This document shows, one piece after another, positions 2,812 through 22,693 of a stretch of 64,000 nucleotides of DNA. The DNA is from an uncultured Candidatus Saccharibacteria bacterium (GTDB taxonomy: Bacteria; Patescibacteriota; Minisyncoccia; Phycocordibacterales; UBA2100): NCBI GenBank assembly GCA_964648335.1, contig CAZYLZ010000006.1, forward strand, positions 3,974 to 67,973, written 5' to 3'. Within the stretch, counting starts at the first letter, position 1. Each line of letters opens with the position of its first letter. The notes under the pieces were generated by a model. That model was given only the letters and a program-made list of their open reading frames with translations, made no database searches and was not told the origin of the DNA. A program made the position numbers and the translations under genes.

Positions 2812-2963
2812 TTGGGTGTCCTCTCCATCCGACCAGAGCGTATGCTCGGTCTTCAGATGGCAAAGGTCTCATCAGGCTAGGCCGAGACCGTGAGGGACAA
2901 ACGAGGAGCTGACACCGACTAATATCATAGCACAGATATACGAATATTCAAATCAAACAAAAA

Positions 2964-2993
2964 ACCTCCCATACGCGGGAGGTTTTTTGTTTG
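2964..2993. terminator. Rho-independent terminator (bidirectional hairpin)
   Basis: aaaaaacctcccatacgcgggaggttttttgtttggg: GC stem flanked by A-run and T-run, downstream of the minus-strand pilin gene. Confidence 0.7.
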
Positions 2994-3003
2994 GGAAACA
3001 GAA

Positions 3004-3474: not shown

Positions 3475-3565
3475 AAGTGAATACATATCTATGCTAGCTA
3501 AATAAATTACTGACCCCGATATACCTTGCCTCCTCCCCTTCCCGCAAGTCTGACGATGTCGTCTG

Positions 3566-7483: not shown

Positions 7484-7484
7484 A

Positions 7485-7994: not shown

Positions 7995-7995
7995 A

Positions 7996-9483: not shown

Positions 9484-9484
9484 A

Positions 9485-9973
9485 TCAGTGGGTCCAGGCG
9501 ATCGTACCTTCGACGCCGAATGTGATGGTTGATGATGATATCCCGTCGGTGATGGCGACCTCGGTGCCGGAAGGATACGTAGTGACGTCACCCGAGAGTG
9601 TATCGAAGACGACGTCAGAAACCGGACCTGAGAACGATACCGGGTACTCGGGTACGGTCACGATATCGACTGCTGTGTCGCGCGCTGCATACGACGTACC
9701 TTGAAAGAGTACATACTGCCCTCCTGACAGGTGCACACCGTGCGCCTTTCCAGCAGTACAACCCGTACCGAGGCAAATGTTGTTCATGCTCTCGGCGCGC
9801 GCTTTGTGGATCATCGCGACAAGCTTGTCACGTTCGCCGCGCAGCGACGATTTGCGGAAGGTATCCATGCCGACGAGCATGCTCATGCTACCGATGATAC
9901 CGACGAGCCCCATCACAACGAGAAGCTCAATCAGTGTGAAGCCGCCGGTGCGGACCAGACCTCTCCTACTCAT
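9485..9973 (-). CDS. Type IV pilin-like protein
   Basis: MSRRGLVRTGGFTLIELLVVMGLVGIIG prepilin motif. The start abuts the pilC stop. Confidence 0.75.
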   Translation of the reverse strand: MSRRGLVRTGGFTLIELLVVMGLVGIIGSMSMLVGMDTFRKSSLRGERDKLVAMIHKARAESMNNICLGTGCTAGKAHGVHLSGGQYVLFQGTSYAARDTAVDIVTVPEYPVSFSGPVSDVVFDTLSGDVTTYPSGTEVAITDGISSSTITFGVEGTIAWTH

Positions 9974-9974
9974 C

Positions 9975-11255
9975 TTAGCCGTGCAAGCTTTGCGTAATGC
10001 CATAAATAGGAGTGATGATCGATACCGCGATGAATCCGACGAGAAGCCCCATGAAGATCATGAGCAAAGGCTCGATCAGTGTGGAGATATCTTTGGCGAA
10101 GTCGTCGACTTCGTTCTCGTAAAGGTCCGAGAGGTAGAGGAGCGTGTTCGAGAGGTTACCCGTCTTCTCACCAACTGCTACAAGTTGGGCGAGGATGTCG
10201 GGAAAGACGTTGCGATGGGCTGCCAGGTAAGTCGACATCCGCTCGCCGCGGTTGATCGTGTGCGCAAGCGCGCGGAAGTGTCGCTTGTAAACCAGATTCT
10301 GCGAAGTATCTGCGGTCAGGGGAAGTGCTTCTGACAAGGTGACGCCACCCTTGAGCATGATACCGAGCGTGCGCGTCGCGTTTGCAAGATTGTAGTACTG
10401 CACCATCTTTCCGACGAGAGGAATTTGGAGCAGGAATCCATGGAAGTACATGCGACTCGCCTTGTTCTTCTTGATGAGGATCGAGAAGGCGGTCACGAAA
10501 AGAACTATCCCCGCGGATAGCGCGAAACCACTCTTCTGCAAGAAATTGCTGATTGCTATGACGATCTGAGTCGACATTGGCAAGGTCATGTGGAGGCTCG
10601 AGAAGATCGGCATAATCTTCGGGAACAGATAGACCATGAGGAAGATCGTTATGCCGACAGTCGCCGTCGTGATGAGCGCCGGGTACACCAACGCACCGAT
10701 CACCTTGCGGCGGAGGATCTGCTTCTTCTTGAGTTCGTCGGCAAGATAGTCGAGGTTCTCGCTCAATACCCCGCTCGACTCACCCACTTTTATGATGTTG
10801 ATCGCAAAATCACCGAACACGTGCGGGAATTTTCCGAAGCTTTTGGAAAGCGCCTGGCCCTGCGACGTGTCTTCTATAATTTGGTCAAGTATGCGGCGGT
10901 GGCTGCGGGTGCGCGATTGCGTGCGCAAGATATGGAGGCTCTCGAGCATCGGAACGCCTGCTCGGGTAAGGAATGAAAGACGCTTGGCAAAGAATGTCTG
11001 CTCTTTTATAGCGAGTCGCGGCGCGACATACTGATCCATCATCATCGCGAGCCTGGTGAAGCGAGACCGGTCGTCATAGCTACGCTTTACCGGAAGCGCT
11101 TTCGGTTCGTCGGGCTCGGGTTCGGTCGGGTCGGTGGGATTGCCGGGCAGCTTCGGGAAGAACGAGAGCTTGGCCGGCTGTCGTCGTACTCGCTCGCCCG
11201 CTATCGAAAACAATATGCGAGCGATGTTCTCGAAGGGTGCGGTTGCGATGTTCAT
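9975..11255 (-). CDS. pilC: Type IV pilus assembly platform protein PilC / GspF family
   Basis: Two GspF-type repeats with polytopic membrane segments, 426 aa, directly downstream of the ATPase gene. Confidence 0.8.
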   Translation of the reverse strand: MNIATAPFENIARILFSIAGERVRRQPAKLSFFPKLPGNPTDPTEPEPDEPKALPVKRSYDDRSRFTRLAMMMDQYVAPRLAIKEQTFFAKRLSFLTRAGVPMLESLHILRTQSRTRSHRRILDQIIEDTSQGQALSKSFGKFPHVFGDFAINIIKVGESSGVLSENLDYLADELKKKQILRRKVIGALVYPALITTATVGITIFLMVYLFPKIMPIFSSLHMTLPMSTQIVIAISNFLQKSGFALSAGIVLFVTAFSILIKKNKASRMYFHGFLLQIPLVGKMVQYYNLANATRTLGIMLKGGVTLSEALPLTADTSQNLVYKRHFRALAHTINRGERMSTYLAAHRNVFPDILAQLVAVGEKTGNLSNTLLYLSDLYENEVDDFAKDISTLIEPLLMIFMGLLVGFIAVSIITPIYGITQSLHG

Positions 11256-11256
11256 A

Positions 11257-12504
11257 TTATTCGTGAATGACGCGTAATACCTCCTCGAGCGTTGTGAGAC
11301 CTGCCTCGACTTTCTTGAGTCCGTCGTCGAACATCGTCGTCATACCGTTCTTTATGGCGATATTTTTTATGTCTGCCGACGATGCACGCGCGAGGATCGC
11401 CTCACGGATCTCGGCATCGGCGACGAGCACCTCGTTGATACAGAGACGTCCGGAATAGCCGCTTCCATTGCAGGAGGCGCAGCCCGCTCCGCGGTGAAGC
11501 TTGGTCTTAGGGTCGATAGTACGGCCGGTCGTGAGCAAGAGATGCTCGCGCAAGGCGTCGGTGAACTCGGTCTCTTCCTTGCAGTCCGAGCAGATTTTGC
11601 GCACGAGTCGCTGGCCGATCGCGATGGAGACCGTCGTCGCAACCAAGAATCCTTCGATCTTCATGTCCAACAGACGTGGAATGGTCGTCGCCGCGTCGTT
11701 GGTATGTACGGTAGAGAGAAGGAGGTGTCCGGTGAGCGCTGTATTGACCGCGATACCAGCGGTCTCGGCATCACGGATCTCGCCGACCATGATGACATTT
11801 GGGTCCTGGCGCAAGATACTCCGAAGACCATTGGCAAACGTAAGCCCGGTGCGTGCGTTAACTTGTATTTGCTCTATGCCGTCGACGGAATACTCGATCG
11901 GGTCTTCGATGGTGATGATGGAAATGTCCGGCGACTTGAGCATCCGCACCAGCGTATACAAGGTAGTCGTCTTTCCCGATCCAGTCGGACCAGTCGCGAG
12001 AATCATGCCGGTCGGCTTCTTGATTGCCTGCAAGATCTTGCGTTTGTCTTCGGGACTGAACCCAAGGTCGTCGAGCGTAAAATCTTCGGCATTGCTCGAA
12101 AGGAGGCGCAGCACCGCATTCTCTCCGTGATACGTAGGACAAATCGAGACACGGATGTCGATGAAGGCTGTCTCGCCCATAGTGTGCCGGATGCGGCCAT
12201 CTTGTGTAGCGTTGTGCTCGTCAGTGCGTAACGATGCGAGAACTTTTATACGCGAAATAACCTCGCCGTGGATCTCTTTAGGCAAGAGGCACACCTGTTG
12301 CAACACGCCATCGACGCGAAAGCGGATGCGGACGCCTGTAAGGCTCGGGTCGATATGGATGTCTGAGGCGCGCATCTCGCTCGCCTTCTCGATGATGGCA
12401 TCGACGACATTTATGATGGAGCAATTGATTCCCCGAGCAAGCTCGAGGTCGAGTTTGCTTATGAGCACGTGCGAATTTATTTTTGGAATTACGGTATCCA
12501 TAGC
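11257..12504 (-). CDS. pilB: Type IV pilus assembly ATPase PilB/GspE family
   Basis: Walker A GPTGSGKTT, a tetracysteine CSDC...CASC zinc motif typical of GspE/PilB, and a GSPII N-domain. Start could be 12504 or the upstream Met at 12588. Confidence 0.8.
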   Translation of the reverse strand, partial: AMDTVIPKINSHVLISKLDLELARGINCSIINVVDAIIEKASEMRASDIHIDPSLTGVRIRFRVDGVLQQVCLLPKEIHGEVISRIKVLASLRTDEHNATQDGRIRHTMGETAFIDIRVSICPTYHGENAVLRLLSSNAEDFTLDDLGFSPEDKRKILQAIKKPTGMILATGPTGSGKTTTLYTLVRMLKSPDISIITIEDPIEYSVDGIEQIQVNARTGLTFANGLRSILRQDPNVIMVGEIRDAETAGIAVNTALTGHLLLSTVHTNDAATTIPRLLDMKIEGFLVATTVSIAIGQRLVRKICSDCKEETEFTDALREHLLLTTGRTIDPKTKLHRGAGCASCNGSGYSGRLCINEVLVADAEIREAILARASSADIKNIAIKNGMTTMFDDGLKKVEAGLTTLEEVLRVIHE

Positions 12505-12646
12505 GTGCAGAATTCTGTCGTAGCGGCCAATCAGACAGCGGAAATTTGCTGTAGGACATTTATACGCCCAGAGGGCCTCTACCCGCAACCAAAAACGCGT
12601 GGTTTGCTATGCGAAAGGTGGCGCAAAACAGCACTACACCACGCTT

Positions 12647-13765
12647 CTAACGAATGACAGAAACGGCCGACTTGAATGCTTCGAGTGATTCGGGACTCGA
12701 GTTGACACGCCAATCTTTTTCTTTGTTGGCATTAAACCAGATCCACGCGACAACGTTGTATCGAGCCATCTGTGTCGAGAGCGCGTCTGTAATCCACGCG
12801 GGCTTGTCGCTTCCCGGTGCACTCGCGATGGAAAACACGTAGATAGGCTTGCCATAATGGCGCAGACGAAAGAGCATCTTCGAGAATAACGACTCGAAGT
12901 CTTGCCACGGCCGCGCGAAATTGAACCCATCTACCCCCACCACATCGACGTATGCGTCTCCTGGATAGTACGCGGCGATATCGTTTTCGGGCGTATCGGG
13001 ATTAGGTTCTTGGTTCACCGCCCAGCCCCAGGTGATGTTGTGCGGTCCCTGCGACATGACGACATCGTGCGTGTGTCGCCAGGCAAACACGAGCTTTGCA
13101 GCGGAGTTACCCGGATGCACTCCGCTCCACGGACTATCGACTAGGTTCATCTCGTGAAAAGGGGCAATGAGAATCGGGTCGCCATACTCGATGGCATCTC
13201 GTGTGAAGGAGCGCATGTAGTCATCCCACTTTCCCGCGATAATGTCGTCGAGACTTCCCTGCGGTTCCCAAAATACGACGAAGGTCTTCGTACTGCCTTT
13301 GAGCGATTGTACGATTGTTTTCGGAAATGCATCGCCGAACGCGACAAAATACGCAGAAAGATTTGCTGTGTGACCAACCAATGATTCGAATCGCGCTAGG
13401 TCCCCTACGTTGTCGCCTGCATAGACACCCCAGCGGTGTGGCTGCTCGGTACCGTATGTAATCTGAGGATCGAGAGGCTTAGGTGGATTCATGACGATGG
13501 AGTTTGTAATGTTAATCGGTACCGAATGACCCAGTGTCGTTGTAGATGGGTCAGGTTGAGCGAGGGTGGTCGGACCCGCTTCGATCGTAGCATTCTCAGT
13601 CGCCGCGGTAGACGCAAGTGCCACTGCCTGCTCAGAGAGAATGCCATCTACCTTCGGCAAATTGTCACTTGAGTCGACCGAACTGAGCCAGTAGGCGCCG
13701 CTAGCTACGAGCATACACGCGGCGAATGAACCCAACACCAAAATCCGCCCACGAATATGATTCAT
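12647..13765 (-). CDS. Secreted TIM-barrel glycoside hydrolase-like protein (GH26/GH5-like, HEMN motif)
   Basis: Signal/TM N-terminus, FHEMN acid/base-like motif, WEPQG motif. A clear nucleophile motif was not found, so the family is tentative. Confidence 0.35.
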   Translation of the reverse strand: MNHIRGRILVLGSFAACMLVASGAYWLSSVDSSDNLPKVDGILSEQAVALASTAATENATIEAGPTTLAQPDPSTTTLGHSVPINITNSIVMNPPKPLDPQITYGTEQPHRWGVYAGDNVGDLARFESLVGHTANLSAYFVAFGDAFPKTIVQSLKGSTKTFVVFWEPQGSLDDIIAGKWDDYMRSFTRDAIEYGDPILIAPFHEMNLVDSPWSGVHPGNSAAKLVFAWRHTHDVVMSQGPHNITWGWAVNQEPNPDTPENDIAAYYPGDAYVDVVGVDGFNFARPWQDFESLFSKMLFRLRHYGKPIYVFSIASAPGSDKPAWITDALSTQMARYNVVAWIWFNANKEKDWRVNSSPESLEAFKSAVSVIR

Positions 13766-13796
13766 AGGCGGATTGTAACAAATTAAGGATGTGATG

Positions 13797-14819
13797 TTAC
13801 TGAAGCGTCGCGGTCTCGCTAAAGTGCGCTGCGCAGGATCCGTTGTTAAACACGGGACCGCTCGCTACCACATAATTCGACGCAGGATCCTTGATGACGG
13901 TGTGCAGATCGGTGACCGCGTCTTCGCAGGCATAGACTGCCGACTGGCTGGCACCCTGACCTCCGACCCAGATGTCGAGCCATGGATGGCCCTGGTAGCC
14001 GGTGTGGCACGGACCGTTTTGCGGGCTGTTGCCGTCTCCACAGGTGTCCTCGACGATAAAGTACCGGTGCAGGAATGGCATGTAGAAGATGGTTCCTGCA
14101 GGGTAGTCGAGGGTGTCTTTACCTCCCGAGATACTGTGACCTACCGCGACTGTTATCGGATCGGCATAGGTACCCATTCCTCCGGCGCTCGAATGGATCT
14201 TGCCATTGGATATGGCACCTCCGGCTGGTGTGTTGTCGGGCCAGCCGTAGCCGGTTATGTAGGCGGTCATGACCGATCCTGCGGGCTTCTGCACTACAGG
14301 CGCAGGAACGGTCGAGGGCGACGCAACAACGGGCTTTGGCGTAGCGACTGGTTTCGGCACGACTGTCACCGGCACTGGAGTCGATACTGACGCGGGCTGC
14401 ACTTGTGCGCAGGTTGGCACGACGACGGTTACGATCTTCGAATAACTGGCACGACGATTACTAGTATATGTCTTGACTTGGTATCGATAGCTTCCGGCTC
14501 CAGCCTTTACCGTTTCCGAGAAACCTGCGGACGGCTGCTTGCTCGACTTGTTTACCCACGAGCCAGTGCCGGGGTCCTGCCTGAACACCGAATAGGAAGT
14601 TGCATTGGTAACGGCGGGCCATGTGAGCGAGACTTTTGCGGTTCCGCTTGCGCAGCTCGCCGCAGCGGTGAGCGTGAGCTTGTTAGAAGAATATGTTTGC
14701 GCGTATGCATTGTCTGCAGTGACTGCTAACATCGACGGGTTGATAACTCCTAGAATAATCCACGCTGCTGGTACGAAGGCAGCAATAACCCACATAGTCT
14801 GGAATGATCGATGTGTCAT
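13797..14819 (-). CDS. Secreted FN3-like + 3D-domain (MltA-like) protein, cell-wall-remodelling candidate
   Basis: Signal peptide. C-terminal YITGYG..GTYADPITVAV..YFIVEDTCGDG..HPWLDIWVGG matches the three-Asp pattern of the 3D domain. Start set at MTHRSF (14819). Confidence 0.5.
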   Translation of the reverse strand: MTHRSFQTMWVIAAFVPAAWIILGVINPSMLAVTADNAYAQTYSSNKLTLTAAASCASGTAKVSLTWPAVTNATSYSVFRQDPGTGSWVNKSSKQPSAGFSETVKAGAGSYRYQVKTYTSNRRASYSKIVTVVVPTCAQVQPASVSTPVPVTVVPKPVATPKPVVASPSTVPAPVVQKPAGSVMTAYITGYGWPDNTPAGGAISNGKIHSSAGGMGTYADPITVAVGHSISGGKDTLDYPAGTIFYMPFLHRYFIVEDTCGDGNSPQNGPCHTGYQGHPWLDIWVGGQGASQSAVYACEDAVTDLHTVIKDPASNYVVASGPVFNNGSCAAHFSETATLQ

Positions 14820-14933
14820 ATAATTACCGTATCTTTTCAGACGCACCGGCACAACAACCATTTCACGCGCGCTTCATAAAGCAACCGAATTGCTTCACGG
14901 TCAATTATTTTCTTTTTCTGACGCACGAATGCG

Positions 14934-17900
14934 TTACGGATTCATCTGTGCGAGCCCCTGCTTCATCGTGACGACCGGGATGCCGTTTGCGACAAGATAG
15001 TTTACGTAGGTCTGGAAGTCTTCAGGAGTTGCTCCGTACTGATCGTTCTGATGATCGATCTGGTGGTACATGAGGATGAGCCACGTGTGGTTTGTCATCG
15101 CGGTCTCCGTCCACTGTTGCCACGTCGCAGCAGTCGTCGATGCATTCACCTCTTGTATCATGAGCTTGTACTTGTCGGTGGCCTTGTTGTTGTAGCCTTG
15201 GTCGACAGTGCGCGCAGCGACGTAACCGGCACTCTTTACAATCGCATCAGTGGTTGCGTTGTAGTCTCCATACGGATAGACGAAGGTATCTGCTGGCGTG
15301 ATGCCGATAGCATTGAGGTCTTGCTTAGCTCCGAGGATCTCGTCAGTAGCCGACGCTGCCGACAGGGTCGTCAAAAACGGATGCGTACGGGTGTGCGACG
15401 AGACTTCGTGGCCCGAAGCGAATATCTGCTGGACCTGCGCGGTGTTCATGTAGTCCTGCGCGATGTCGAGGTGAACGTCGTCGACCGTGAGTGATCCTGC
15501 CGTCGCGATCTTGTGATACACAGCCACGGTCTTGGTGTTAGCAGGCGGAATGAAGGTAAATGCCGCAGTCGCCCAGACAGCCGATGCTGGCACGGTACCG
15601 AGGTCTACCGTCTGCGTCGTGTTGTTCGTGAGTGTGTAGCGGACTGACACCGTGGTCGGGACCGTCGCCATGTAGCGATCGGTGTAGTTGTGCGCCTCGG
15701 CAGAAACGAGCGTCATCTCGTCAGGTTGCCACTGCGCACTGCCGCTCGCAAGCGATGCAACATCGATCTTGACGGCTTTCGCTCCCAGAACTCCGGCGAC
15801 CGGGTACGTGAAGGTCGTGGTGCTGACACCGGTCTTGATCGCAGTCCAGTTCGCTGGCGTCGTCGACGAGAGTGCGACTTCGAATGATGGATTATCGACG
15901 CGATTCTGGTTGATCGCCTCCTGCATCGACTTGGTGATGATAAAGAAGCTTCCTTTGAGACCAGCAGCATTCAGCATCTGATAGGCCGTGTCGTACTGCG
16001 ATCCCCATCCGTCGTCGAAGGTTATCGTGACGAATCCAGCGGGGAAACCATTGGGCCCCGGATCGATCGTCGAAGCCGCCTGCAGCCGAAGCGCCGCATT
16101 ATCGATAGTCAGCGAGCCGTTGCCGTTGATGAGGTGGAAGATGGTGACCTTGGTGCTCGATGCCGGCGGCGTAAACGCCTGCAGTACCGACGTCCAGCTT
16201 GCCGATGGCGCGATGTTGAGCGTGATATCCGAGTAGACGAACGAGTTATCGGAAAGTGTGTAGCGTGCGGTCAGGGTCGAGGTTGCGGTAGAGGTGTACT
16301 GGTTCGAGTATTCGTAGACCTGGCCGGGCGTTACCGCGACGTCCTCGAAGTACCATTTCGCATCGCCGTCGGTTCGGTTAGCCATCGAGACCGAAGCGGC
16401 AGCCGCGCCGTCGATACCCGCTACCGGGTAGCTGAAGGTTGTCGAGCTCGTACCCCAACCGCCCTGGAACCAGTGGTCGGGCACACCCACGACAGTCGCG
16501 GTCTCGAGCGACGGATTCTGAATGAGGTTTGGATTCTGAGGAGTCGGTGGGATGTAGAAGGTATTGAAGGTGACGGTCGACGCGTTGCCGATGTTGTTGG
16601 CAGCATCGGTCGCATATGCAGTGATCGTGTGCGAGCCATTCTTGAGAGCCTTGATCGGAATCTGCACGGTGTAGGGAGCTGCTGTAAGCTCTCCGACGAT
16701 GTGGTCGATACCGTTCGTGACTTCGTAGTGCACCGCAGTAACGGCGACGTTGTCGCTTGCCGCAAAGATGAGTGTCGTCGTCGCTGCCAGGATGGAACCG
16801 GTCGTCGGCTGCGTAATTGATACGACAGGTGCTTGCGTGTCGGGTATCGGATTGTTGACGGTAACGGTGATCGGAGTCGTCGATGCTGCGTTGTTGGCTG
16901 CGTCCTTGGCCTCTGCATAGACCGTGTGCGATCCATTAATAAGTGCCGTCGTGTCGAAGGTCATCGAATACGGCGCGGTCGCGTCAACTCCGTACGACGC
17001 ACCATCGACGAAGAACGTGACCTGCGTCACCGCGACATTGTCACTTGCTGTTGCCGTGAGCGATGTAGAAGTACCGACGACGGTTGCGTTAGCGGTTGGT
17101 GATGTCAGGGCTACAGTCGGCTTGGTTGTGTCTGCAGTCGTCGTCGAGTTCGATACGGTGAATGTCGCGGTGGTAGAGGTACCGATGTTCCCTGCGGCGT
17201 CGCGCGCCTGTGCGTACACCGTATGCGAACCGTTTGTGATTGATGTGGTGTTCACCGAGAGTACGTACGGAGCGGTCGTCGATTCGACTCCGAATGGTAC
17301 GCCATCGACGATGAAGCGGACTCCTGCGACAGCAACGTTATCCGAAGCGGTCGCCGAGAACGATGCTGTGCCGGAGAGGGTCGCACCCGAGGCTGGCGAC
17401 GTAAGCGCTGCGAGCGGCTTGGTGGAGTCAGGCGTCGAGGTCGCGCTGCCGGGGGCAGTGAGTGATGCGTTGTCGATTGTGAGCGTACCTACCGCGTTAA
17501 GTCCATGGAAGACGGTCGCCTTTACCGTGCCTGCGGGCGGCGTGAAGGTCCGTGTTATGTGTGTAAATCCGGAAGAAGCAGGTGCGGCACCGAGATCGAG
17601 ATAACTGTAGGTCGGCGTCGCGGTCTCGTATTGTACGGTGACGAAACTCGAACCGGTCGACTGGTAGTCGTCCTGGAAGGTATAGGTCGTGCCTGGGGTG
17701 ACAGCAACCGGCGTAAAGTACCACTTCGCGTCTCCCGAGGTGAATGCCGTGACCTGGAGCTTTGCGCCATTACCGGCCGCACCCGCCGACGGATACGTGA
17801 ATGTGCGAGTAAGCGTACCCCATCCACCCTGTGCCCAACCCAAGGGCAACGCTCCGTTTGCCGTCTCGAACGTGCCGTTGGTTATGAGATTGGATCCACT

Positions 17901-18752
17901 CGGAGGCACGACAATGACGTTGGAAACAGTGACCGCGACTGATGCCGAGGTCGCGTTATTTGCCGATGTATCGCGTGCTCGTGCAGTGATGGCATGCGCA
18001 CCGTTGGCGAGCGACGCGGTGTTAAGCGAAATGGAGTACGGCGCCGACGTGTCTTCGGCTCCCGTTGCGACACCGTCCACCAAGAACTGAACGCCAGCGA
18101 CCGCTACGTTGTCCGCAGCATTTGCCGAGAGTGTTACCGTTCCCGAGATCGTGGCACCTGCAGTTGGAGCAGTCACCGATACCGTAGGAACTACGCTGTC
18201 GGTCGATGTTGCGTTCGACGTTACCGAGGCGTTATCGATCGTGAGCGTACCTACCGACGACAGTCCGTGGAAGACAGTCGCTTTCACGACGCCAGCCGGA
18301 GGTGTGAACGTGCGCGTGATATGTGAAAACCCTGCCGAGGCGGGCGCGGCCGTAAGCGAAGCATAGCTATAGACCTGTGCTGCTGTCTCGTACTGAATCG
18401 CAAGGAAACTCGAACCGGTCGACTGGTAGTCGTCCTGGAAGGTATAGGTCGTGCCTGGGGTGACAGCAACCGGCGTAAAGTACCACTTCGCGTCTCCCGA
18501 GGTGAATGCCGTGACCTGGAGCTTTGCGCCATTGCCCGTCATTCCGGGAGCGGGGTACGTGAAGGTCTTGGTGTTAGTTCCCCATCCGCCCTGTGCCCAT
18601 CCTAGGGGCAGCGCTCCGTTTGCAGTCTCGAAGTCGCCGTTCACGACGAGGTTTGCCGCTGCAGTTGCTGCGAACGGATTAATGAGGATAAAGCCAGCGA
18701 TGGCGGTGAGGACCAGGAGCCCTACGAGACTTGCTCTGAGTGCGCGGTTCAT
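14934..18752 (-). CDS. Giant secreted polysaccharide deacetylase (CE4/NodB domain) fused to multiple CBM-like and Ig-like domains, IcaB/PgaB-like
   Basis: C-terminal NodB motifs FVTITFDDGWGS, GHEVSSHTRTHP, ILMYHQIDH. Several NLVVNGDFE..GGWG carbohydrate-binding-module-like domains. Repeated Ig-like domains (TVSVTAPTAGATISGT..). Signal peptide. Confidence 0.75.
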   Translation of the reverse strand: MNRALRASLVGLLVLTAIAGFILINPFAATAAANLVVNGDFETANGALPLGWAQGGWGTNTKTFTYPAPGMTGNGAKLQVTAFTSGDAKWYFTPVAVTPGTTYTFQDDYQSTGSSFLAIQYETAAQVYSYASLTAAPASAGFSHITRTFTPPAGVVKATVFHGLSSVGTLTIDNASVTSNATSTDSVVPTVSVTAPTAGATISGTVTLSANAADNVAVAGVQFLVDGVATGAEDTSAPYSISLNTASLANGAHAITARARDTSANNATSASVAVTVSNVIVVPPSGSNLITNGTFETANGALPLGWAQGGWGTLTRTFTYPSAGAAGNGAKLQVTAFTSGDAKWYFTPVAVTPGTTYTFQDDYQSTGSSFVTVQYETATPTYSYLDLGAAPASSGFTHITRTFTPPAGTVKATVFHGLNAVGTLTIDNASLTAPGSATSTPDSTKPLAALTSPASGATLSGTASFSATASDNVAVAGVRFIVDGVPFGVESTTAPYVLSVNTTSITNGSHTVYAQARDAAGNIGTSTTATFTVSNSTTTADTTKPTVALTSPTANATVVGTSTSLTATASDNVAVTQVTFFVDGASYGVDATAPYSMTFDTTALINGSHTVYAEAKDAANNAASTTPITVTVNNPIPDTQAPVVSITQPTTGSILAATTTLIFAASDNVAVTAVHYEVTNGIDHIVGELTAAPYTVQIPIKALKNGSHTITAYATDAANNIGNASTVTFNTFYIPPTPQNPNLIQNPSLETATVVGVPDHWFQGGWGTSSTTFSYPVAGIDGAAAASVSMANRTDGDAKWYFEDVAVTPGQVYEYSNQYTSTATSTLTARYTLSDNSFVYSDITLNIAPSASWTSVLQAFTPPASSTKVTIFHLINGNGSLTIDNAALRLQAASTIDPGPNGFPAGFVTITFDDGWGSQYDTAYQMLNAAGLKGSFFIITKSMQEAINQNRVDNPSFEVALSSTTPANWTAIKTGVSTTTFTYPVAGVLGAKAVKIDVASLASGSAQWQPDEMTLVSAEAHNYTDRYMATVPTTVSVRYTLTNNTTQTVDLGTVPASAVWATAAFTFIPPANTKTVAVYHKIATAGSLTVDDVHLDIAQDYMNTAQVQQIFASGHEVSSHTRTHPFLTTLSAASATDEILGAKQDLNAIGITPADTFVYPYGDYNATTDAIVKSAGYVAARTVDQGYNNKATDKYKLMIQEVNASTTAATWQQWTETAMTNHTWLILMYHQIDHQNDQYGATPEDFQTYVNYLVANGIPVVTMKQGLAQMNP
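17644..17771. repeat. 128-nt exact intragenic duplicate (copy 1), within a ~390-bp diverged CBM-domain duplication
   Basis: Identical to 18405..18532. The flanking ~130 bp on each side are similar but diverged. Confidence 0.85.
18405..18532. repeat. 128-nt exact intragenic duplicate (copy 2)
   Basis: Identical to 17644..17771. Confidence 0.85.
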
Positions 18753-18802
18753 ACGGATAGTTTTGATTACGAGACACGTGATTTGTAAATGAAGATCGGA
18801 TA

Positions 18803-19150
18803 CTACTGCACGGGTTGGTGGTTAGCAACCGCCGCGGCTGCCGTCTGCGTCGTCGTCCCCTCGTGCAACACGATTGACCGCAGCGCTGAGAAGTCGATCT
18901 CGGAGACGCGTGCAGACACCATACCGAACGCGCCCGAGCTCACCCATATAAACACCAAGCCGACGATCGAGTACGAAAGGGCGCGTCGTAATATCGAATC
19001 ACCTGATTGCGATGAAAGTATGTAGGTCACGCGGGGTCGCTCAACGACGACGCCGAGCCGCTCCATGCGGTGCTTGAGATACGAATAGATCATGCTTATC
19101 ACCAGGATAAGCGAATGAGCAATGAGCGAAAGTCCTCCTACAGGTGTCAT
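18803..19150 (-). CDS. Small two-TM membrane protein, IcaD/PgaD-like partner candidate
   Basis: 115 aa with two hydrophobic helices. Its ATG overlaps the GT2 stop (ATGA), suggesting translational coupling, and it lies between the GT2 and CE4 genes. Confidence 0.4.
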   Translation of the reverse strand: MTPVGGLSLIAHSLILVISMIYSYLKHRMERLGVVVERPRVTYILSSQSGDSILRRALSYSIVGLVFIWVSSGAFGMVSARVSEIDFSALRSIVLHEGTTTQTAAAAVANHQPVQ

Positions 19151-20184
19151 ATGGTATTTGTTGATGGACCGATGTTAACGCGTGCCGGCTTAAACCAGAT
19201 GAGTCGCTTGCGACGCAAGAGAATCTCCTTAAAGAACTGCTCGATGAACACGTACGAATTGATAAAGAGGAACAGCGGATAGATTGGGATCACAGCAAAG
19301 AGGTCCCAGCGCTTGCGTGTTGCCGCCGCATAGACTCCGGAAATGAAAACAAAAGCGAAGTAGATGGCTAGGAAGTAAAGGAAAAGCCCAAAGTTGAAGA
19401 ATGCGAGCAAGAATGGAAGGCACGCGAAGAAGAGTCCTTCGATATAAATGATCGATATCTCGAGCGCACCGCCGGGTTTATGTACGATGTTCGAACCGTG
19501 CTTCAAGAGGTTCTGCCAGATACCGCTGTGCCAGCGTCGCATCTGATTGATGTAGGCGCGGACTGTCGTCGGATCCTGCGTATAGGCGACCGCCTTCTTC
19601 TGGTATTCGATCTTGAAATACTGCTGATGCAACTTGAAGGTAAAGTCGAGATCCTCGGTGAGAGTGTCGTGGTCGAACCCGATATATTTGCGAAAGATGT
19701 CGGTCTTGAACGCGCCCGCGCATCCAGGGATCACAAAGAGAAATCCGATGTTCGCCTGAGCGGTTTTGTGGATGTCCTGACCCACCACGTAGTCGATCTC
19801 TCGACACGCTGTTACCCAGTTGTATTGCATGCTCTTCACGTATCCCGCTACCGCGTCGACTTCCGGGTTCTGATAGCTCTCTTCAATCGACTCGACAAAC
19901 AAAGGATCGAGAATAGTGTCGCCATCGGTCGCAATGAAGACTTCGCTCGTCACATGCGCAATCCCCTGTTCTTGCGCGTAGCTTTTGTTACCGGTGGCCA
20001 CAGGAATCGTTACCACCTTTATCTTGTTTCCGTAGGTCGCCAAGATCTGCGGCGTAGCGTCGGTGGAGCCGTCGTCGACGACAACGATCTCGTCAGCCGG
20101 ACGTGTCTGGTTGAGACATGAGTCAATACACGCGCGAACGGATTGTTCTTCGTTATGACATGGGACGAGTATGGATATTCGCAT
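19147..20184 (-). CDS. Family 2 glycosyltransferase, processive IcaA/PgaC-like (polysaccharide synthase)
   Basis: ILVPCHNEE, VVDDGSTD, and a QMRRWHSGIWQ (QxxRW-like) motif, with C-terminal TM helices. An alternative upstream start exists at 20292. Confidence 0.75.
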   Translation of the reverse strand: MRISILVPCHNEEQSVRACIDSCLNQTRPADEIVVVDDGSTDATPQILATYGNKIKVVTIPVATGNKSYAQEQGIAHVTSEVFIATDGDTILDPLFVESIEESYQNPEVDAVAGYVKSMQYNWVTACREIDYVVGQDIHKTAQANIGFLFVIPGCAGAFKTDIFRKYIGFDHDTLTEDLDFTFKLHQQYFKIEYQKKAVAYTQDPTTVRAYINQMRRWHSGIWQNLLKHGSNIVHKPGGALEISIIYIEGLFFACLPFLLAFFNFGLFLYFLAIYFAFVFISGVYAAATRKRWDLFAVIPIYPLFLFINSYVFIEQFFKEILLRRKRLIWFKPARVNIGPSTNTI

Positions 20185-20698
20185 AGAATGTTCGGATTGC
20201 TTTCGCTCGGCGACTGGCTCGGTCGTACTGATGGCGGAAAAGTGTCCGGTAGATTCGAGTATGGGCTTCACGTATGAAGCAGCGGTTAACAAAAAACCCA
20301 GGACATTGATCCAGGGTAGTACTGTCTACGAGCTCCACGAAAAACAGACCGTTCAAGTCGTGCTTTTCTGCAATCTCTTCGTTCAGATACGAGCCGGATC
20401 GTCTGTCGTTAACCGTCATACACGAGAAGCTCTCGCGTATGCGTATAGAAATACTCCTATAAGCGGGCATCGTCAAGCAGACAAAGGATGAAAATGATGG
20501 TCGCATGTCTAACTAATGGAGAAATCGCGGCTCAGGCACCAGTGGCAATCACTGGCCCAGAGGCCTGCACGGACGTCAATATTTTTTTAACTCTCTGCAT
20601 GGTAGTGTTTTCGATTGACCGGTCTGCGGTCAGCTTTATCAACGCCTTTGCAGGCGTATTCTGCAAAGGTATTTACCGGATTACAGAATCATTTCAGT

Positions 20699-22693
20699 AT
20701 GACTAGCATTTCTCGATACAGCTCGACAGATACGATCGCGCTTGCCGTTGCCATCGTGGCACTCATAGCGCTCGTGTTCTCGCCGATTTCTCATATTACT
20801 AAGGCAAACTCCCTCTTGGGATCGACCCACCTCTCGATCGCGCATGCAGAAGGCGATGGAGGGGGCGGTGACGGAGGTGGAGGCGATGGCGGAGGTGGTG
20901 ATGGCGGAGGCGGAGATGGTGGTGGTGACGGAGGTGGAGATGGTGGTGGAGATGGCGGAGGTGACGGAGGCGGAGATGGTGGTGGTGACTCCGGCGGAAG
21001 CGATGGTGGAGGCAGCGACTCCGGCTCTGGAGATTCTGGCTCCGGTGACTCGGGCATGGGCAGCGACGGCGGATGCTGCGGCGGCGGAGACGACTCGGGC
21101 TCAGAAGGCGGAAGCAACGGCATTTTCGTGCCGGTAATTCCGTCGACTCCGGTCGCAAACCCTTCGTGCTCTCTCAGCTCGATCAAGATCCCGATCCCGT
21201 TCGTCGGCGACGCCGCGGTCCTCTTTTGGAGCTCGTCGAACGCCACATCGGCTTCGATCGACCACGGAATCGGGGCTCTCTCCCCTGTCTCGGTAGGTAC
21301 TCGCGTGATCTCAAGCATCACGGCGACTACCAAGTACACAATGACGGCAGTCGGTGCAAATGGGGCAAAGGCTATCTGCTCGACGACAGTTACCGTGACG
21401 CCTGTCACGCCAAAACCTACCTGTGTCATCACTGCGACCCCAGGATCGATCGCAACGGGCGGCCATAGCGTCCTTTCTTGGAACTCGACTGACGCCGCAT
21501 CGGCAACGATCGACAACGGATTGGGATCGGTCATGACGAGCGGCGCTCAGAGCGTCTCTCCAACGGCAAACACTCAGTACACTATGACCGTTACAGGTAC
21601 CGGCGGTACCGCTACCTGCAACGCGACGGTAGTAGTCACGAATGTCCCTCCTCCTGCACAGCCAACATGCACGATCTCGGCGTACCCTTCTGAGGTCTCT
21701 CAGGGCGGATCGTCGGTACTCACCTGGTCGTCGACAAACGCATCGTCGGCATCCTTGAATGGCGGCATCGGGGCCGTGTCGACCAATGGATCACGATCAG
21801 TGACTCCGTCGTCAAACACAACCTATGTCCTAACGGTGACAGGTTCGGGCGGAACCGCGACATGCAGTGCACCAGTGACGATCAAGAACACTCCTCCAAC
21901 GCAGCCTTCGTGCACCCTCTCGGCCAGCCCGACACAGGTCGTGGCAGGCGGCGCGAGCGTCCTCTCGTGGACCTCGAACAACGCGACATCGGCAACCTTG
22001 GGTGCATTTGGAACGGTCGCCGTAAACGGATCGACCACCGTAACCCCGAGCGTCAACACAACGTACACACTCACCGTAACCGGTGCAGGAGGCACTGCGA
22101 CGTGCACGGCACACGTGACTATCAAGTCTGTACAGACATACACTCCGACCTGCTCTATCTGGGCAATCCCGGATGAGCAGATCGTTCCTGGTGGATCCAC
22201 GGCACTCTCGTGGTCTTCGACCAACGCATCGTCGGCATCGATCGATAACGGCATCGGGGCAGTGAGCCTCGAGGGCACACGTACCGTGTCGAATCTCTGG
22301 GACGACACCATCTTCACGATGAACGTTTCGGGCCAGGGCGGAACAGCACAGTGCTCGGTACCGGTATTCCTCAAGGAGACGACTCCAAAGCCGCCGAAAA
22401 AGCCAACCTGTGATATCCACATGGGTGGCAAGAACGCATACGGTGCCGAAGAGACCATCGCATGGAACACCGACGACGACGTCGACTCGGTAGAGATCGA
22501 GGGCGCCGGCGAAGTCCCTAAGCACGGATGGCGCGGCATCATGAAGCTCGACAAGCAGACCACCTTCAAGATGAAGGTAAAGAAAGGAACCCAGGTCACC
22601 GAATGCTCTTGCGTAGGAAACCCTATCGAGGACAAGTCGGCAGACTGGAGCAGCTGGTCTAACCAGGGCTGGCAGCACAGCGCGTGGTACTAG
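20699..22693 (+). CDS. Secreted/anchored tandem-repeat surface protein with Gly/Asp-rich low-complexity tract and 5-6 Ig-like ~85-aa repeats
   Basis: TM/signal N-terminus. (GDGGG)n then (SGSGD)n tract. Repeats of the form PTCTISA.P..V..GGSSVLTWSSTNASSASL.GIGAVS..TYVLTVTGSGGTATC. Start set at MTSISRY (20699). Confidence 0.65.
   Translation: MTSISRYSSTDTIALAVAIVALIALVFSPISHITKANSLLGSTHLSIAHAEGDGGGGDGGGGDGGGGDGGGGDGGGDGGGDGGGDGGGDGGGDGGGDSGGSDGGGSDSGSGDSGSGDSGMGSDGGCCGGGDDSGSEGGSNGIFVPVIPSTPVANPSCSLSSIKIPIPFVGDAAVLFWSSSNATSASIDHGIGALSPVSVGTRVISSITATTKYTMTAVGANGAKAICSTTVTVTPVTPKPTCVITATPGSIATGGHSVLSWNSTDAASATIDNGLGSVMTSGAQSVSPTANTQYTMTVTGTGGTATCNATVVVTNVPPPAQPTCTISAYPSEVSQGGSSVLTWSSTNASSASLNGGIGAVSTNGSRSVTPSSNTTYVLTVTGSGGTATCSAPVTIKNTPPTQPSCTLSASPTQVVAGGASVLSWTSNNATSATLGAFGTVAVNGSTTVTPSVNTTYTLTVTGAGGTATCTAHVTIKSVQTYTPTCSIWAIPDEQIVPGGSTALSWSSTNASSASIDNGIGAVSLEGTRTVSNLWDDTIFTMNVSGQGGTAQCSVPVFLKETTPKPPKKPTCDIHMGGKNAYGAEETIAWNTDDDVDSVEIEGAGEVPKHGWRGIMKLDKQTTFKMKVKKGTQVTECSCVGNPIEDKSADWSSWSNQGWQHSAWY
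20862..21060 (+). repeat. Coding microsatellite-like (GGN GAY)n tract encoding (GDGGG)n/(SGSGD)n
   Basis: ggcgatggagggggcggtgacggaggtggaggcgatggcggaggtggtgatggc... periodic repeat, slippage-prone. Confidence 0.8.

What the first reader, a model, noticed from the sequence alone, without database searches (positions are those of the whole stretch)
14934..20184. icaADB/pgaCDB-like exopolysaccharide locus with a giant CBM/Ig-decorated CE4 deacetylase
A processive GT2 (QxxRW-like motif) is translationally coupled (ATGA overlap) to a 115-aa two-TM protein (IcaD/PgaD-like). It is followed by a 1272-aa secreted protein whose C-terminus is a NodB/CE4 deacetylase and whose N-terminal ~1000 aa are repeated carbohydrate-binding-module-like and Ig-like domains. 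The arrangement suggests synthesis and partial de-N-acetylation of a PNAG-like polymer, but the deacetylase architecture is far larger than IcaB/PgaB.
Basis: partly seen in the sequence, partly recalled or inferred. Interest (0 to 1): 0.6.

Follow-up and report, generated by a model that had tools for sequence, protein, structure and literature searches.

The report
Candidate-phyla polysaccharide synthase–deacetylase gene cassette
This is a real gene cluster, shared by many ultra-small uncultured (CPR/Patescibacteria-type) bacteria, that most likely makes, deacetylates and trims a surface sugar polymer; it works like the PNAG (ica/pga) biofilm systems but is not a member of them.

Summary
On the minus strand lie a 345-aa GT2 (19147-20184) with DxD, TED and QMRRW motifs, a 115-aa two-TM protein that overlaps it by ATGA (18803-19150), and a 1272-aa secreted protein (14934-18752) ending in a CE4 deacetylase.

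- The GT2 is PgaC-like (30% identity to E. coli PgaC) and folds like hyaluronan and cellulose synthases. It scores 129 bits against a PgaC/IcaA cutoff of 422 and lacks PgaC's N-terminal TM hairpin.
- The small protein shows no detectable homology to PgaD and matches no NCBIfam model, IcaD included. It does belong to a fast-evolving family found directly after the GT2 in 55 of 75 related loci, and it is fused to the giant protein in two.
- The CE4 domain carries a fourth CBM-like module nested inside it.
- The cassette also has a conserved fourth gene, a GH26 lichenase-like protein (12647-13765). It keeps the acid/base Glu, but the nucleophile Glu is Ser in all 30 cassette copies aligned there.

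Closest GT2 relatives with a source name are CPR. The polymer's identity is unresolved. Verdict: an uncharacterised variant of synthase-dependent exopolysaccharide systems, of moderate interest.

The parts
19147..20184 (-). GT2 processive-type glycan synthase, 345 aa. It has a GT-A domain from residue 3, an interface helix carrying QMRRW, and three C-terminal TM helices. It has no N-terminal TM.
   Evidence: Pfam PF00535/PF13641/PF13632. NCBIfam PgaC_IcaA 129 bits, below the cutoff of 422. Key motif residues invariant in homologues. AF2 pLDDT 91.8; best folds are Cv-HAS and Xl-HAS1 at TMq 0.70-0.78, then BcsA and Chs1. 30% identity to E. coli PgaC residues 77-314.
18803..19150 (-). Small two-TM membrane protein, 115 aa. 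Its start overlaps the GT2 stop (ATGA). It has an N-terminal P-x-G-G-L-S-x-x-x-H motif in TM1 and GD(S/T)xxRR before TM2.
   Evidence: Sequence read directly. TM segments. No hit in whole-database searches. A targeted phmmer against ORFs downstream of related GT2 genes gives 15 hits at E<=1.2e-3, best 1.2e-10. A family HMM hits 64 of 2699 ORFs, 58 of them directly after the GT2, in 55 of 75 eligible loci. Motifs. Fused to the giant protein in L119 and L126.
14934..18752 (-). Giant secreted multidomain CE4 deacetylase, 1272 aa. Order: signal peptide, CBM-like A1, Ig, CBM-like A2, three Ig, CBM-like A3, then CE4 with CBM-like A4 nested inside.
   Evidence: Pfam gives 4x Big_7 and a split PF01522. 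Module boundaries and identities. AF2 of residues 741-1272 has pLDDT 93.6.
18213..18656 (-). CBM-like beta-sandwich module A1 (res 33-180)
   Evidence: 83% identical to A2 and 46% to A3. Homologous modules in L001 reach Pfam CBM_4_9 at 39.9 bits.
17457..17894 (-). CBM-like module A2 (res 287-432), a recent duplicate of A1
   Evidence: 83% identity to A1 over 146 aa
16560..18194 (-). Four Big_7 Ig-like domains: res 187-278 lies between A1 and A2; res 444-533, 545-631 and 641-731 lie between A2 and A3.
   Evidence: Pfam PF17957, 188 bits, 4 stretches. Pairwise identity 43-57%.
16083..16532 (-). CBM-like module A3 (res 741-890), directly before the CE4 domain
   Evidence: PF02018 18.8 bits, E 0.0022, below the gathering cutoff. 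The AF2 model shows a beta-sandwich. The Foldseek hits to CBM22, CBM16 (TMt 0.71) and CBM70 come from a model holding both A3 and A4 and were not assigned to either module.
15909..16040 (-). CE4 N-terminal part (res 905-948) with motif 1, TFDDG (16008-16022)
15465..15908 (-). CBM-like module A4 (res 949-1096), nested inside the CE4 domain between motif 1 and motif 2
   Evidence: Pfam CE4 is split into 2 stretches. In-silico excision gives one contiguous CE4 match, 12-136 against profile positions 6-123 of 124, at 97.3 bits. In the AF2 model a beta-sandwich lies between CE4 strand 2 and the next CE4 helix. The same nesting occurs in many related loci and in proteins P0122-P0162.
14937..15464 (-). 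CE4 C-terminal part (res 1097-1272) with HTRTH (15381-15395), VYPYG (motif 3, Arg replaced by Val) and LMYH (catalytic His)
   Evidence: The two motif-2 His are invariant and the motif-5 His nearly invariant in alignment A2.
13797..14861 (-). Accessory secreted or anchored protein of unknown family, 354 aa. It has an N-terminal TM, a possible Fn3-like stretch, a Pro-rich linker and a Cys-rich C-terminal domain. It is present in only some cassettes.
   Evidence: No Pfam or NCBIfam match. Weak Fn3 hit to PDB 3mpc, E 0.25. tblastn finds relatives downstream of the GT2 in 3 other loci, L049, L051 and L057, of 36 scanned.
12647..13765 (-). GH26 lichenase-like (CtLic26A-like) protein, 372 aa, with an N-terminal TM or signal. 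The acid/base Glu is retained (HEMN). The nucleophile Glu is replaced by Ser (FSIAS).
   Evidence: Pfam GH26 27.4 bits against a cutoff of 20.2. PDB 2bv9 and related entries, E 1.9e-34, 122 bits. Residue-level alignment. Ser at the nucleophile position in all 30 cassette copies aligned there, and Glu at the acid/base position in all 29 aligned sequences including CtLic26A. A GH26-like gene lies downstream of the GT2 in 21 of 36 loci.

Best explanation
The locus is a lineage-specific, synthase-dependent polysaccharide module with four core genes. I commit to this mechanism and mark each step as shown or inferred.

1. Polymerisation and export. The compact GT2 polymerises a beta-linked, acetylated (most likely N-acetylhexosamine-containing) glycan from a nucleotide sugar at the cytoplasmic face and threads it across the membrane. 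The motifs and the fold are shown; the chemistry is inferred.

2. The membrane partner. The GT2 has only three TM helices and no N-terminal hairpin. The co-translated two-TM protein is inferred to be its obligatory membrane partner, and possibly also the dock for the deacetylase. The conserved adjacency and the fusions to the giant protein are shown; a physical interaction is inferred.

3. Binding and deacetylation. Outside the cell, the giant protein captures the nascent chain with its four CBM-like modules, spaced by Ig domains. It works like a BcsB-type guide with a built-in enzyme. Its CE4 domain partially deacetylates the chain, and the nested CBM holds substrate next to the active site. 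The domains and catalytic residues are shown; the function is inferred.

4. Trimming. The GH26 lichenase-like protein trims or releases the polymer. It has lost its nucleophile Glu but kept its acid/base Glu. This fits substrate-assisted catalysis by a 2-acetamido group (inferred).

The product could be PNAG, a chitin/chitosan-like polymer or a mixed-linkage polymer. The data do not decide among them.
For: - GT2: key residues of DxD, TED and QxxRW are invariant across the family. PgaC_IcaA is the best NCBIfam model and matches nearly full length. Identity to E. coli PgaC is 30%. The AF2 model (pLDDT 91.8, pTM 0.89) best matches hyaluronan synthases at TMq 0.70-0.78, then BcsA and Chs1.
- Synteny in 36 loci with at least 4 kb downstream of the GT2: CE4 in 29, CBM-like modules in 26, GH26-like in 21. 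The same gene order with precomputed Pfam families is seen in L049 and L051 and in L001.
- Small protein: family members sit directly after the GT2 in 55 of 75 loci. 58 of 64 HMM hits among 2699 six-frame ORFs lie at that position. It is fused N-terminally to the giant protein in two independent loci.
- CE4: the TFDDG, HTRTH and LxH residues are present. The model is high-confidence and shows the nested beta-sandwich.
- GH26-like: 122 bits to CtLic26A. The acid/base Glu is conserved in 29 of 29 aligned sequences, and Ser replaces the nucleophile in all 30 cassette copies aligned there.
- Gene layout: all five genes lie on one strand. The GT2 and small genes overlap, and the other gaps are 31-72 bp.
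Against: - There is no biochemical evidence for any step, and the sugar and linkage are unknown.
- CE4 enzymes can be O-deacetylases: acetylxylan esterase 2cc0 is among the best PDB matches. An N-acetyl substrate is therefore not proven.
- The CE4 motif-3 Arg is replaced by Val, so full activity is not guaranteed.
- Nested CBM-CE4 proteins also occur with no GT2 neighbour, in Dactylosporangium (L134) and L135. This family is not dedicated to such a cassette.
- 7 of 36 loci show no CE4 within the sequence available.
- The small protein was never found fused to the GT2 itself, and no complex prediction could be run.
- The nucleophile-less GH26 could be a non-catalytic binding protein.
Confidence: 0.6

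Rival explanations
1. It is a true, divergent PNAG (poly-beta-1,6-GlcNAc) system, functionally orthologous to icaADB/pgaCDB. The GT2 would be the IcaA/PgaC equivalent, the small protein the IcaD/PgaD equivalent and the giant protein the IcaB/PgaB equivalent.
For: PgaC_IcaA is the best-scoring curated model for the GT2 and aligns over residues 2-331 against profile positions 46-371 of 407. Identity to E. coli PgaC is 30%, with the same TED-type catalytic motif. The gene order GT2, small integral membrane protein, CE4 mirrors icaA-icaD-icaB. PgaD and IcaD are themselves non-homologous (PMC7112194), so the lack of sequence similarity does not exclude an analogous role.
Against: The score is 129 bits against a cutoff of 422.3. 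The CE4 is closer to HfsH and to chitin or xylan deacetylases than to PgaB or IcaB. The N-terminal TM hairpin of PgaC is absent. hhalign probability against PgaD is 0.07%. The associated hydrolase is GH26 lichenase-like, not the GH153 of PgaB (from my own knowledge of CAZy families). No PgaA- or IcaC-like gene was found among the neighbours scanned.
Confidence: 0.22
2. The product is a different beta-glycan: a chitin/chitosan-like beta-1,4 HexNAc polymer, or a mixed beta-1,3/1,4 polymer of the hyaluronan or lichenan type. It would be deacetylated by a chitin-deacetylase-like CE4 and cut by the lichenase-like GH26.
For: The nearest solved folds of the GT2 are hyaluronan synthases, which make alternating beta-1,3/1,4 bonds. 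The hydrolase's only strong PDB relative is the beta-1,3-1,4-glucanase CtLic26A. The CE4 core is closest to 8hfa and to chitin deacetylases. Weak or faint Pfam chitin-synthase hits occur on the GT2 family.
Against: By my recollection of the chitin synthase, NodC and HAS literature, those enzymes carry an EDR/DDR-type catalytic motif, whereas this GT2 has TED like PgaC and BcsA. NodC scores 66.6 bits, lower than PgaC_IcaA. Fold similarity does not report linkage specificity.
Confidence: 0.3
3. The giant CBM/Ig/CE4 protein and the GH26-like protein act on foreign material, such as host cell wall, chitin or plant and algal glycans, for attachment or scavenging by an epibiotic cell. The GT2 and small protein serve an unrelated envelope function.
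For: Nested CBM-CE4 proteins occur without any GT2 neighbour. The CBM plus Ig plus esterase architecture is typical of secreted polysaccharide-degrading enzymes. The cassette lies next to type IV pilus genes in this window (T2SSE and T2SSF), and pilin-like N_methyl genes lie about 8 kb upstream in L049.
Against: GT2-CE4 adjacency is seen in 29 of 36 loci across relatives whose GT2s are only 51-60% identical to the window's. The small GT2-coupled protein is fused to the giant protein in two loci. Pilus adjacency is not seen in L051.
Confidence: 0.12
4. The GT2 is a non-processive polyprenyl-phosphate sugar transferase (GtrB/DPM1-like) that primes envelope glycosylation. It would not be a polymer synthase.
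For: It is small (345 aa) with few TM helices. The archaeal mannosyltransferase PcManGT (6yv7) is a moderate match by sequence and fold.
Against: QxxRW and TED are invariant. Full-length processive synthases are the top structural matches at TMq up to 0.78, against 0.64 for PcManGT. PgaC_IcaA is the best family model.
Confidence: 0.05

Closest known systems
PNAG systems: E. coli pgaABCD and staphylococcal icaADBC
   Same: Both have a TED/QxxRW GT2 synthase (30% identity to PgaC) followed by a small integral membrane protein and a CE4 deacetylase. The logic is the same: make the polymer, export it, then partly deacetylate it.
   Different: The GT2 and CE4 fall far below the equivalog cutoffs. 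The GT2 has no N-terminal TM hairpin. The small protein is unrelated to PgaD and matches no NCBIfam model (IcaD was not compared directly); its charged loop is inferred to be cytoplasmic, with both ends outside. There is no PgaA or IcaC. The deacetylase is 1272 aa with four CBM-like and four Ig modules and a nested CBM. The hydrolase is GH26-like, not GH153.
Bacterial cellulose synthase BcsA-BcsB, and the Listeria pss system with BcsB-like PssD and deacetylase PssB
   Same: A membrane GT2 works with a large extracytoplasmic carbohydrate-binding partner that is membrane-anchored and receives the nascent chain, plus an accessory glycoside hydrolase. The BcsB and pss comparisons rest on my own knowledge of the literature.
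   Different: No sequence homology to BcsB was detected and there is no PilZ domain. Here the guide carries a catalytic CE4. Only in L119 and L126 is the giant protein itself fused to the TM module.
Hyaluronan synthases (Cv-HAS, Xl-HAS1)
   Same: They are the best solved structural matches to the GT2 model (TMq 0.70-0.78), with a GT-A domain, a QxxRW interface helix and TM helices.
   Different: Identity is 16-18%. By my recollection of the HAS structures, HAS has N-terminal TMs and six TMs in all, whereas this GT2 has three. The catalytic motif type also differs (from memory).
Caulobacter holdfast deacetylase HfsH and chitin-deacetylase-type CE4 enzymes (PDB 8hfa, 8he1)
   Same: These are the best NCBIfam match (HfsH, 76 bits) and the best PDB matches for the CE4 core. 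The Asp/His metal and catalytic residues are shared.
   Different: The HfsH score is below its cutoff of 400. The domain is interrupted by a beta-sandwich of about 150 aa. The motif-3 Arg is replaced by Val.
Clostridium thermocellum CtLic26A (the GH26 lichenase domain of CelH)
   Same: 122-bit sequence match across the whole catalytic domain. The acid/base Glu sits in a conserved HE(M/A)N motif.
   Different: The catalytic nucleophile, Glu222, is Ser in all 30 cassette copies aligned at that position. The substrate is unknown.

Membership tests
PgaC/IcaA PNAG synthase (NCBIfam TIGR03937) | Whole-protein score reaches the curated equivalog cutoff (422.3 bits) | tested here: not met
   129.1 bits, E 2e-37
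PgaC/IcaA PNAG synthase (NCBIfam TIGR03937) | GT2 catalytic motifs D, DxD, TED and QxxRW | tested here: met
   DDGSTD (37), DGD (87), TED (176), QMRRW (214). Key residues invariant in homologues. Aligned with the PgaC motifs.
PgaC/IcaA PNAG synthase (NCBIfam TIGR03937) | N-terminal TM hairpin preceding the GT domain, as in E. coli PgaC residues 1-76 | tested here: not met
   The GT domain starts at residue 3. The alignment begins at PgaC residue 77. No hydrophobic segment lies before residue 238. Longer homologues carry only soluble N-terminal extensions.
pga/ica operon | PgaD or IcaD accessory subunit | tested here: not met
   No Pfam or NCBIfam match for the small protein. No PgaD hit among 22 family members. 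BLASTP against E. coli PgaD gives no alignment. hhalign probability 0.07%. A small integral membrane protein is nevertheless present at the equivalent position, and PgaD and IcaD are themselves non-homologous (PMC7112194). IcaD was tested only through the NCBIfam scan; no IcaD sequence was compared directly.
pga/ica operon | PgaB- or IcaB-type deacetylase at equivalog level | tested here: not met
   PgaB TIGR03938 27.7 bits against 321.9; IcaB TIGR03933 17.3 against 248.35; the best model is HfsH at 76.1 bits
pga/ica operon | PgaA outer-membrane porin or IcaC membrane acyltransferase | tested here: not met
   Pfam and NCBIfam scans of the neighbouring ORFs chosen between 9975 and 25159 show none. 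The neighbours are type IV pilus ATPase and platform proteins, a PDZ protein, a PG_binding protein and unknowns.
pga/ica operon | The product is poly-beta-1,6-N-acetylglucosamine | not testable with these tools
   Needs polymer chemistry
Membrane-embedded processive GT2 synthases (BcsA, HAS, Chs class) | GT-A domain, QxxRW interface helix and TM helices in the synthase fold | tested here: met
   AF2 pLDDT 91.8, pTM 0.89. Foldseek gives Cv-HAS and Xl-HAS1 at TMq 0.70-0.78 (E as low as 5e-18), BcsA 0.61-0.68 and Chs1 about 0.6.
Membrane-embedded processive GT2 synthases (BcsA, HAS, Chs class) | Enough TM helices in one chain to form the translocation channel (six or more in BcsA and HAS, from my own knowledge of those structures) | tested here: not met
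   Only three long helices follow the QxxRW helix: 237-263, 265-290 and 299-322. Hydrophobic segments lie at 238-315. This is the basis for inferring that a partner is needed.
Carbohydrate esterase family 4 (NodB homology, PF01522) | Pfam score above the gathering cutoff | tested here: met
   85.7 bits in two stretches; 97.3 bits in one stretch after excising the insert
Carbohydrate esterase family 4 (NodB homology, PF01522) | Motif 1 TFDDG, motif 2 H(S/T)xxH and the motif 5 LxH His | tested here: met
   TFDDG at 911, HTRTH at 1120 and LMYH at 1227-1230. The two motif-2 His are invariant and the motif-5 His nearly invariant in A2.
Carbohydrate esterase family 4 (NodB homology, PF01522) | Motif 3 Arg (RxPY) | tested here: not met
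   VYPYG aligns with RPPYF of 8hfa and with RPPYG of 2cc0. The family consensus is AYPYG.
CBM4/9/16/22-type beta-sandwich carbohydrate-binding modules (PF02018) | Pfam score above the gathering cutoff (25.9 bits) | tested here: not met
   Window modules: A3 18.8 bits, A4 13 bits, A1 no hit. The homologous module in L001 scores 39.9 bits. PF02018 is precomputed on P0122, P0123 and others.
CBM4/9/16/22-type beta-sandwich carbohydrate-binding modules (PF02018) | Beta-jelly-roll fold | tested here: met
   The AF2 model shows two beta-sandwiches. Foldseek finds the CBM22 tandem 4xup (E 6e-14), CBM16 2zey (TMt 0.71, rmsd 3.8) and CBM70 4d0q.
CBM4/9/16/22-type beta-sandwich carbohydrate-binding modules (PF02018) | Binds carbohydrate | not testable with these tools
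   Needs binding assays
Glycoside hydrolase family 26 | Sequence membership | tested here: met
   PF02156 27.4 bits against a cutoff of 20.2. CtLic26A 122 bits, E 1.9e-34.
Glycoside hydrolase family 26 | Catalytic acid/base Glu (CtLic26A E109) | tested here: met
   HEMN aligns with HEAN. Glu in all 29 aligned sequences, CtLic26A included.
Glycoside hydrolase family 26 | Catalytic nucleophile Glu (CtLic26A E222) | tested here: not met
   Ser in the window protein (FSIAS against AEFAS) and in all 30 cassette copies aligned at that position

The most novel reading that the evidence does not exclude
This may be a distinct class of synthase-dependent polysaccharide secretion system, widespread in the candidate phyla radiation and uncharacterised. 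Its proposed features are:
- a 'split' minimal synthase, in which a GT2 with only three TM helices needs a fast-evolving two-TM subunit supplied in trans;
- an extracellular guide-and-modify protein, in which a CBM is inserted into the CE4 barrel to feed substrate to the active site;
- a GH26 lineage that has given up its nucleophile for substrate-assisted cleavage of an N-acetylated polymer.

Such a surface polymer could matter for how these epibiotic cells build their envelope or stick to hosts.
Probability: 0.3. Interest if true: 0.7.

Novelty: new variant of a known kind. Interest (0 to 1): 0.55.

Why it matters
Very little is known experimentally about the cell surface of CPR/Patescibacteria-type bacteria or how they attach to hosts. 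A four-gene cassette found in many of these lineages gives a concrete and clonable target for that question.

Three features are of general enzymological interest and each is directly testable:
- a processive synthase with too few TM helices, paired with a separate two-TM partner;
- a carbohydrate-binding module nested inside a CE4 catalytic domain;
- a GH26 clade with a conserved Glu-to-Ser change at the nucleophile position.

It is still a variation on the well-known pattern of synthase, deacetylase and hydrolase, and no function has been shown. I therefore rate the interest as moderate.

Tried and rejected
- Whole-database searches for the small protein (word-indexed search; full phmmer of 1.8 billion representatives) found only its own 94% cluster. 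Homologues appeared only in a targeted search of ORFs downstream of related GT2 genes.
- I tested whether the small protein is PgaC's missing N-terminal hairpin moved downstream. hhalign against E. coli PgaC gave 0.95% probability, so there is no sequence support. The idea survives only as a structural inference.
- I looked for GT2-small fusions among longer GT2 homologues (376-473 aa). Their extra residues are soluble N-terminal extensions, not TM modules.
- The 354-aa neighbour is not a diverged GH26 paralogue (BLASTP E 0.41). It has no PDB relative beyond a doubtful Fn3 hit.
- The promoter and terminator scan of 11000-21000 gave counts at the shuffle expectation. It says nothing about operon boundaries.
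- A self-BLAST of the giant protein printed nothing. Modules were delimited by motif and pairwise alignment instead.
The lineage is inferred from GT2 relatives.
- Five literature searches found no description of this cassette, of a nucleophile-less GH26, or of a CBM nested in CE4. One more search failed on term syntax.

Full report
**1. What is in the sequence**

All the genes discussed lie on the minus strand. The GT2 ORF runs from 20292 (TTG) to 19147.

The stop of the GT2 and the start of the 115-aa ORF (18803-19150) overlap as ATGA. I read this directly ('accatATGAcacct').

The 1272-aa ORF (14934-18752) starts 50 bp further on. It is followed at gaps of 72, 31 and 58 bp by:
- a 354-aa ORF (13797-14861);
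- a 372-aa ORF (12647-13765);
- type IV pilus genes, T2SSE at 11257-12588 and T2SSF at 9975-11255.

**2. The glycosyltransferase**

Pfam assigns PF00535, PF13641 and PF13632. The best NCBIfam model is PgaC_IcaA. It aligns nearly end to end but scores 129 bits against a cutoff of 422.3. NodC scores 66.6 bits and CelA 33 bits.

DDGSTD, DGD, TED and QMRRW are present. Their key residues are invariant in 27-39 homologues of 53-62% identity.

Against E. coli PgaC, fetched from MG1655, identity is 30% over 239 residues. The alignment starts at PgaC residue 77, after PgaC's N-terminal TM hairpin. The window protein's GT domain starts at residue 3.

The AlphaFold model has pLDDT 91.8 and pTM 0.89. It shows a GT-A domain, the QxxRW helix and three further long helices. 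Its best solved matches are the hyaluronan synthases at TMq 0.70-0.78, then BcsA and chitin synthase 1.

It is an unusually minimal one.

**3. The small protein**

It has two hydrophobic segments and no Pfam or NCBIfam match. Neither whole-database search found a homologue.

I then collected 84 loci that carry related GT2 genes and called the ORF directly after each GT2.
- A plain phmmer of the window protein against those 72 ORFs gives 15 hits, with E from 1.2e-10 to 1.2e-3.
- An HMM of 22 members hits 64 of 2699 six-frame ORFs. 58 of those lie directly after the GT2, in 55 of 75 eligible loci.

The family shares P-x-G-G-L-S-x-x-x-H at the start of TM1 and GD(S/T)xxRR before TM2. The K+R density is 0.21 in the inter-TM loop, 0 in the N-tail and 0.10 after TM2. 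By the positive-inside rule this implies a cytoplasmic loop with both ends outside (inference).

In L119 and L126 the same module, plus two further TMs, forms the N-terminus of the giant deacetylase (2082 aa and at least 1874 aa).

It is not detectably related to PgaD: BLASTP gives no alignment and hhalign gives 0.07% probability. It is also not related to PgaC's N-terminus (0.95%). PgaD and IcaD are themselves non-homologous (PMC7112194).

**4. The giant protein**

The domain order is: signal peptide, CBM-like A1, Big_7, CBM-like A2, three Big_7, CBM-like A3, then CE4. A1 and A2 are 83% identical, which points to a recent duplication.

Pfam reports the CE4 domain in two stretches. A fourth CBM-like module (res 949-1096) is inserted between TFDDG and HTRTH. 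Deleting it in silico gives one contiguous CE4 match at 97.3 bits.

The AlphaFold model of residues 741-1272 has pLDDT 93.6. It shows a beta-sandwich emerging between CE4 strand 2 and the next CE4 helix. Foldseek matches the sandwiches to CBM22, CBM16 (TMt 0.71) and CBM70.

By sequence the window's modules fall below the PF02018 cutoff. The homologous module in L001 passes it.

The catalytic residues are as follows:
- the motif-1 Asp pair, the motif-2 His pair and the motif-5 His are present;
- the motif-3 Arg is Val.

The CE4 core is closest to HfsH (76 bits, below its cutoff) and to chitin or xylan deacetylase structures. It is not closest to PgaB or IcaB.

The nested architecture recurs in many related loci. 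It also occurs in stand-alone proteins, including one from Dactylosporangium with no GT2 neighbour.

**5. A conserved fourth gene**

The 372-aa protein is GH26 by Pfam. It matches the C. thermocellum lichenase domain CtLic26A at 122 bits, far better than it matches mannanases.

Residue by residue, the acid/base Glu is kept (HEMN against HEAN). The nucleophile Glu222 aligns with Ser (FSIAS against AEFAS).

In an alignment of 32 GH26-like ORFs from the related loci plus CtLic26A:
- the acid/base position is Glu in all 29 sequences aligned there;
- the nucleophile position is Ser in all 30 cassette copies aligned there, and Glu only in CtLic26A and one divergent L001 paralogue.

A conserved loss of the nucleophile with a retained acid/base is what one sees in hydrolases that use the substrate's 2-acetamido group, such as GH18, GH20, GH84 and GH85 (established knowledge). 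Applying that here is an inference. It fits a HexNAc polymer and the neighbouring deacetylase.

**6. Synteny and lineage**

I examined 36 loci with at least 4 kb downstream of the GT2.

| Feature downstream of the GT2 | Loci (of 36) |
|---|---|
| CE4 | 29 |
| CBM-like modules | 26 |
| GH26-like | 21 |
| Big_7 | 16 |
| Relative of the 354-aa ORF | 4 (the window plus 3) |

The order GT2, small, giant CE4, GH26 is explicit in L001 (Ca. Shapirobacteria), L049 and L051. The closest GT2 relatives with a source name are Pacebacteria, Portnoybacteria, Parcubacteria and Patescibacteria.

**7. Mechanism**

I conclude that this is a synthase-dependent polysaccharide module.
- The GT2 polymerises and exports the chain.
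- The two-TM protein is its membrane partner and may also dock the deacetylase.
- The giant protein binds the chain and partly deacetylates it.
- The GH26-like protein trims it.

The shown and inferred steps are separated in the Best explanation section. PNAG is one candidate product (about 0.2-0.25). A chitin-like or mixed-linkage HexNAc polymer is at least as likely.

The main rival is that the secreted enzymes act on foreign glycans. It draws some support from stand-alone nested CE4 genes. The conserved adjacency and the fusions argue against it.

**8. Comparison and novelty**

The locus works like ica/pga and, in its guide-protein logic, like BcsA-BcsB. It fails the membership tests for ica/pga on five counts: the score cutoffs, the N-terminal hairpin, PgaD/IcaD, PgaB/IcaB and PgaA/IcaC.

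Five literature searches found no description of the cassette. I rate it a new variant of a known kind, with interest 0.55.

Noticed in passing
window 12647-13765 (-), and GH26-like ORFs in L001, L049, L051, L057, L066, L067, L070, L074, L077, L078, L087, L090, L092, L096, L101, L103, L106, L109, L111, L112, L118-L120, L123 and L127: A whole clade of CtLic26A-like GH26 proteins has Ser in place of the catalytic nucleophile Glu, while the acid/base Glu is invariant. This may mark substrate-assisted catalysis or a non-hydrolytic role.
   Followed up: partly
L119:~2908-9156 and L126:~2113-end (the ORF directly after the GT2): The two-TM small-protein module, plus two extra TM helices, is fused to the N-terminus of a giant deacetylase of about 1900-2080 aa. 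That protein also carries a GSDH-like beta-propeller region. This is a natural fusion linking the small protein to the deacetylase.
   Followed up: partly
window 20615-22693 (+): Divergently transcribed 692-aa membrane-anchored protein with a long (GGGD)n low-complexity tract and about six tandem Ig-like repeats containing Cys pairs. It has no Pfam or NCBIfam match.
   Followed up: no
window 13797-14861 (-): 354-aa protein with no family assignment. It has a TM, a possible Fn3-like stretch, a Pro-rich linker and a Cys-rich C-terminal domain (GYGWPDNTPAGG...). Relatives lie downstream of the GT2 in three other loci (L049, L051, L057).
   Followed up: partly
window 3566-12588 (-): A type IV pilus-like gene string lies directly downstream on the same strand: T2SSE ATPase at 11257-12588, T2SSF platform at 9975-11255, and further ORFs including one of 1305 aa that I did not annotate. 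Pilin-like N_methyl genes also lie about 8 kb upstream of the GT2 in L049. L051 shows no pilus genes nearby.
   Followed up: partly
L134 (Dactylosporangium sp., CP192030.1 4683503-4701482) and L135: CE4 proteins with the same nested CBM occur outside CPR and without a GT2 neighbour. In Dactylosporangium the gene sits between an ABC/FtsX pair and a two-component system.
   Followed up: partly
P0037, P0085, P0087 and others (GT2 homologues of 376-473 aa): Some GT2 homologues carry soluble N-terminal extensions of 60-130 aa. A few look like a small helix-turn-helix-like domain by eye ('LTADEVCELLKIS...'). I did not scan them.
   Followed up: no
L001:16798-18747 (+): In the Shapirobacteria locus a second, larger cellulose-synthase-like GT2 with a C-terminal LysM domain sits among three GH26-like paralogues. 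Its giant protein carries two complete CE4 domains.
   Followed up: no
window 17457-18656 (-): CBM-like modules A1 and A2 are 83% identical at the protein level. This is a recent internal duplication of the CBM-Ig unit, and it could cause assembly collapse in short-read contigs.
   Followed up: partly
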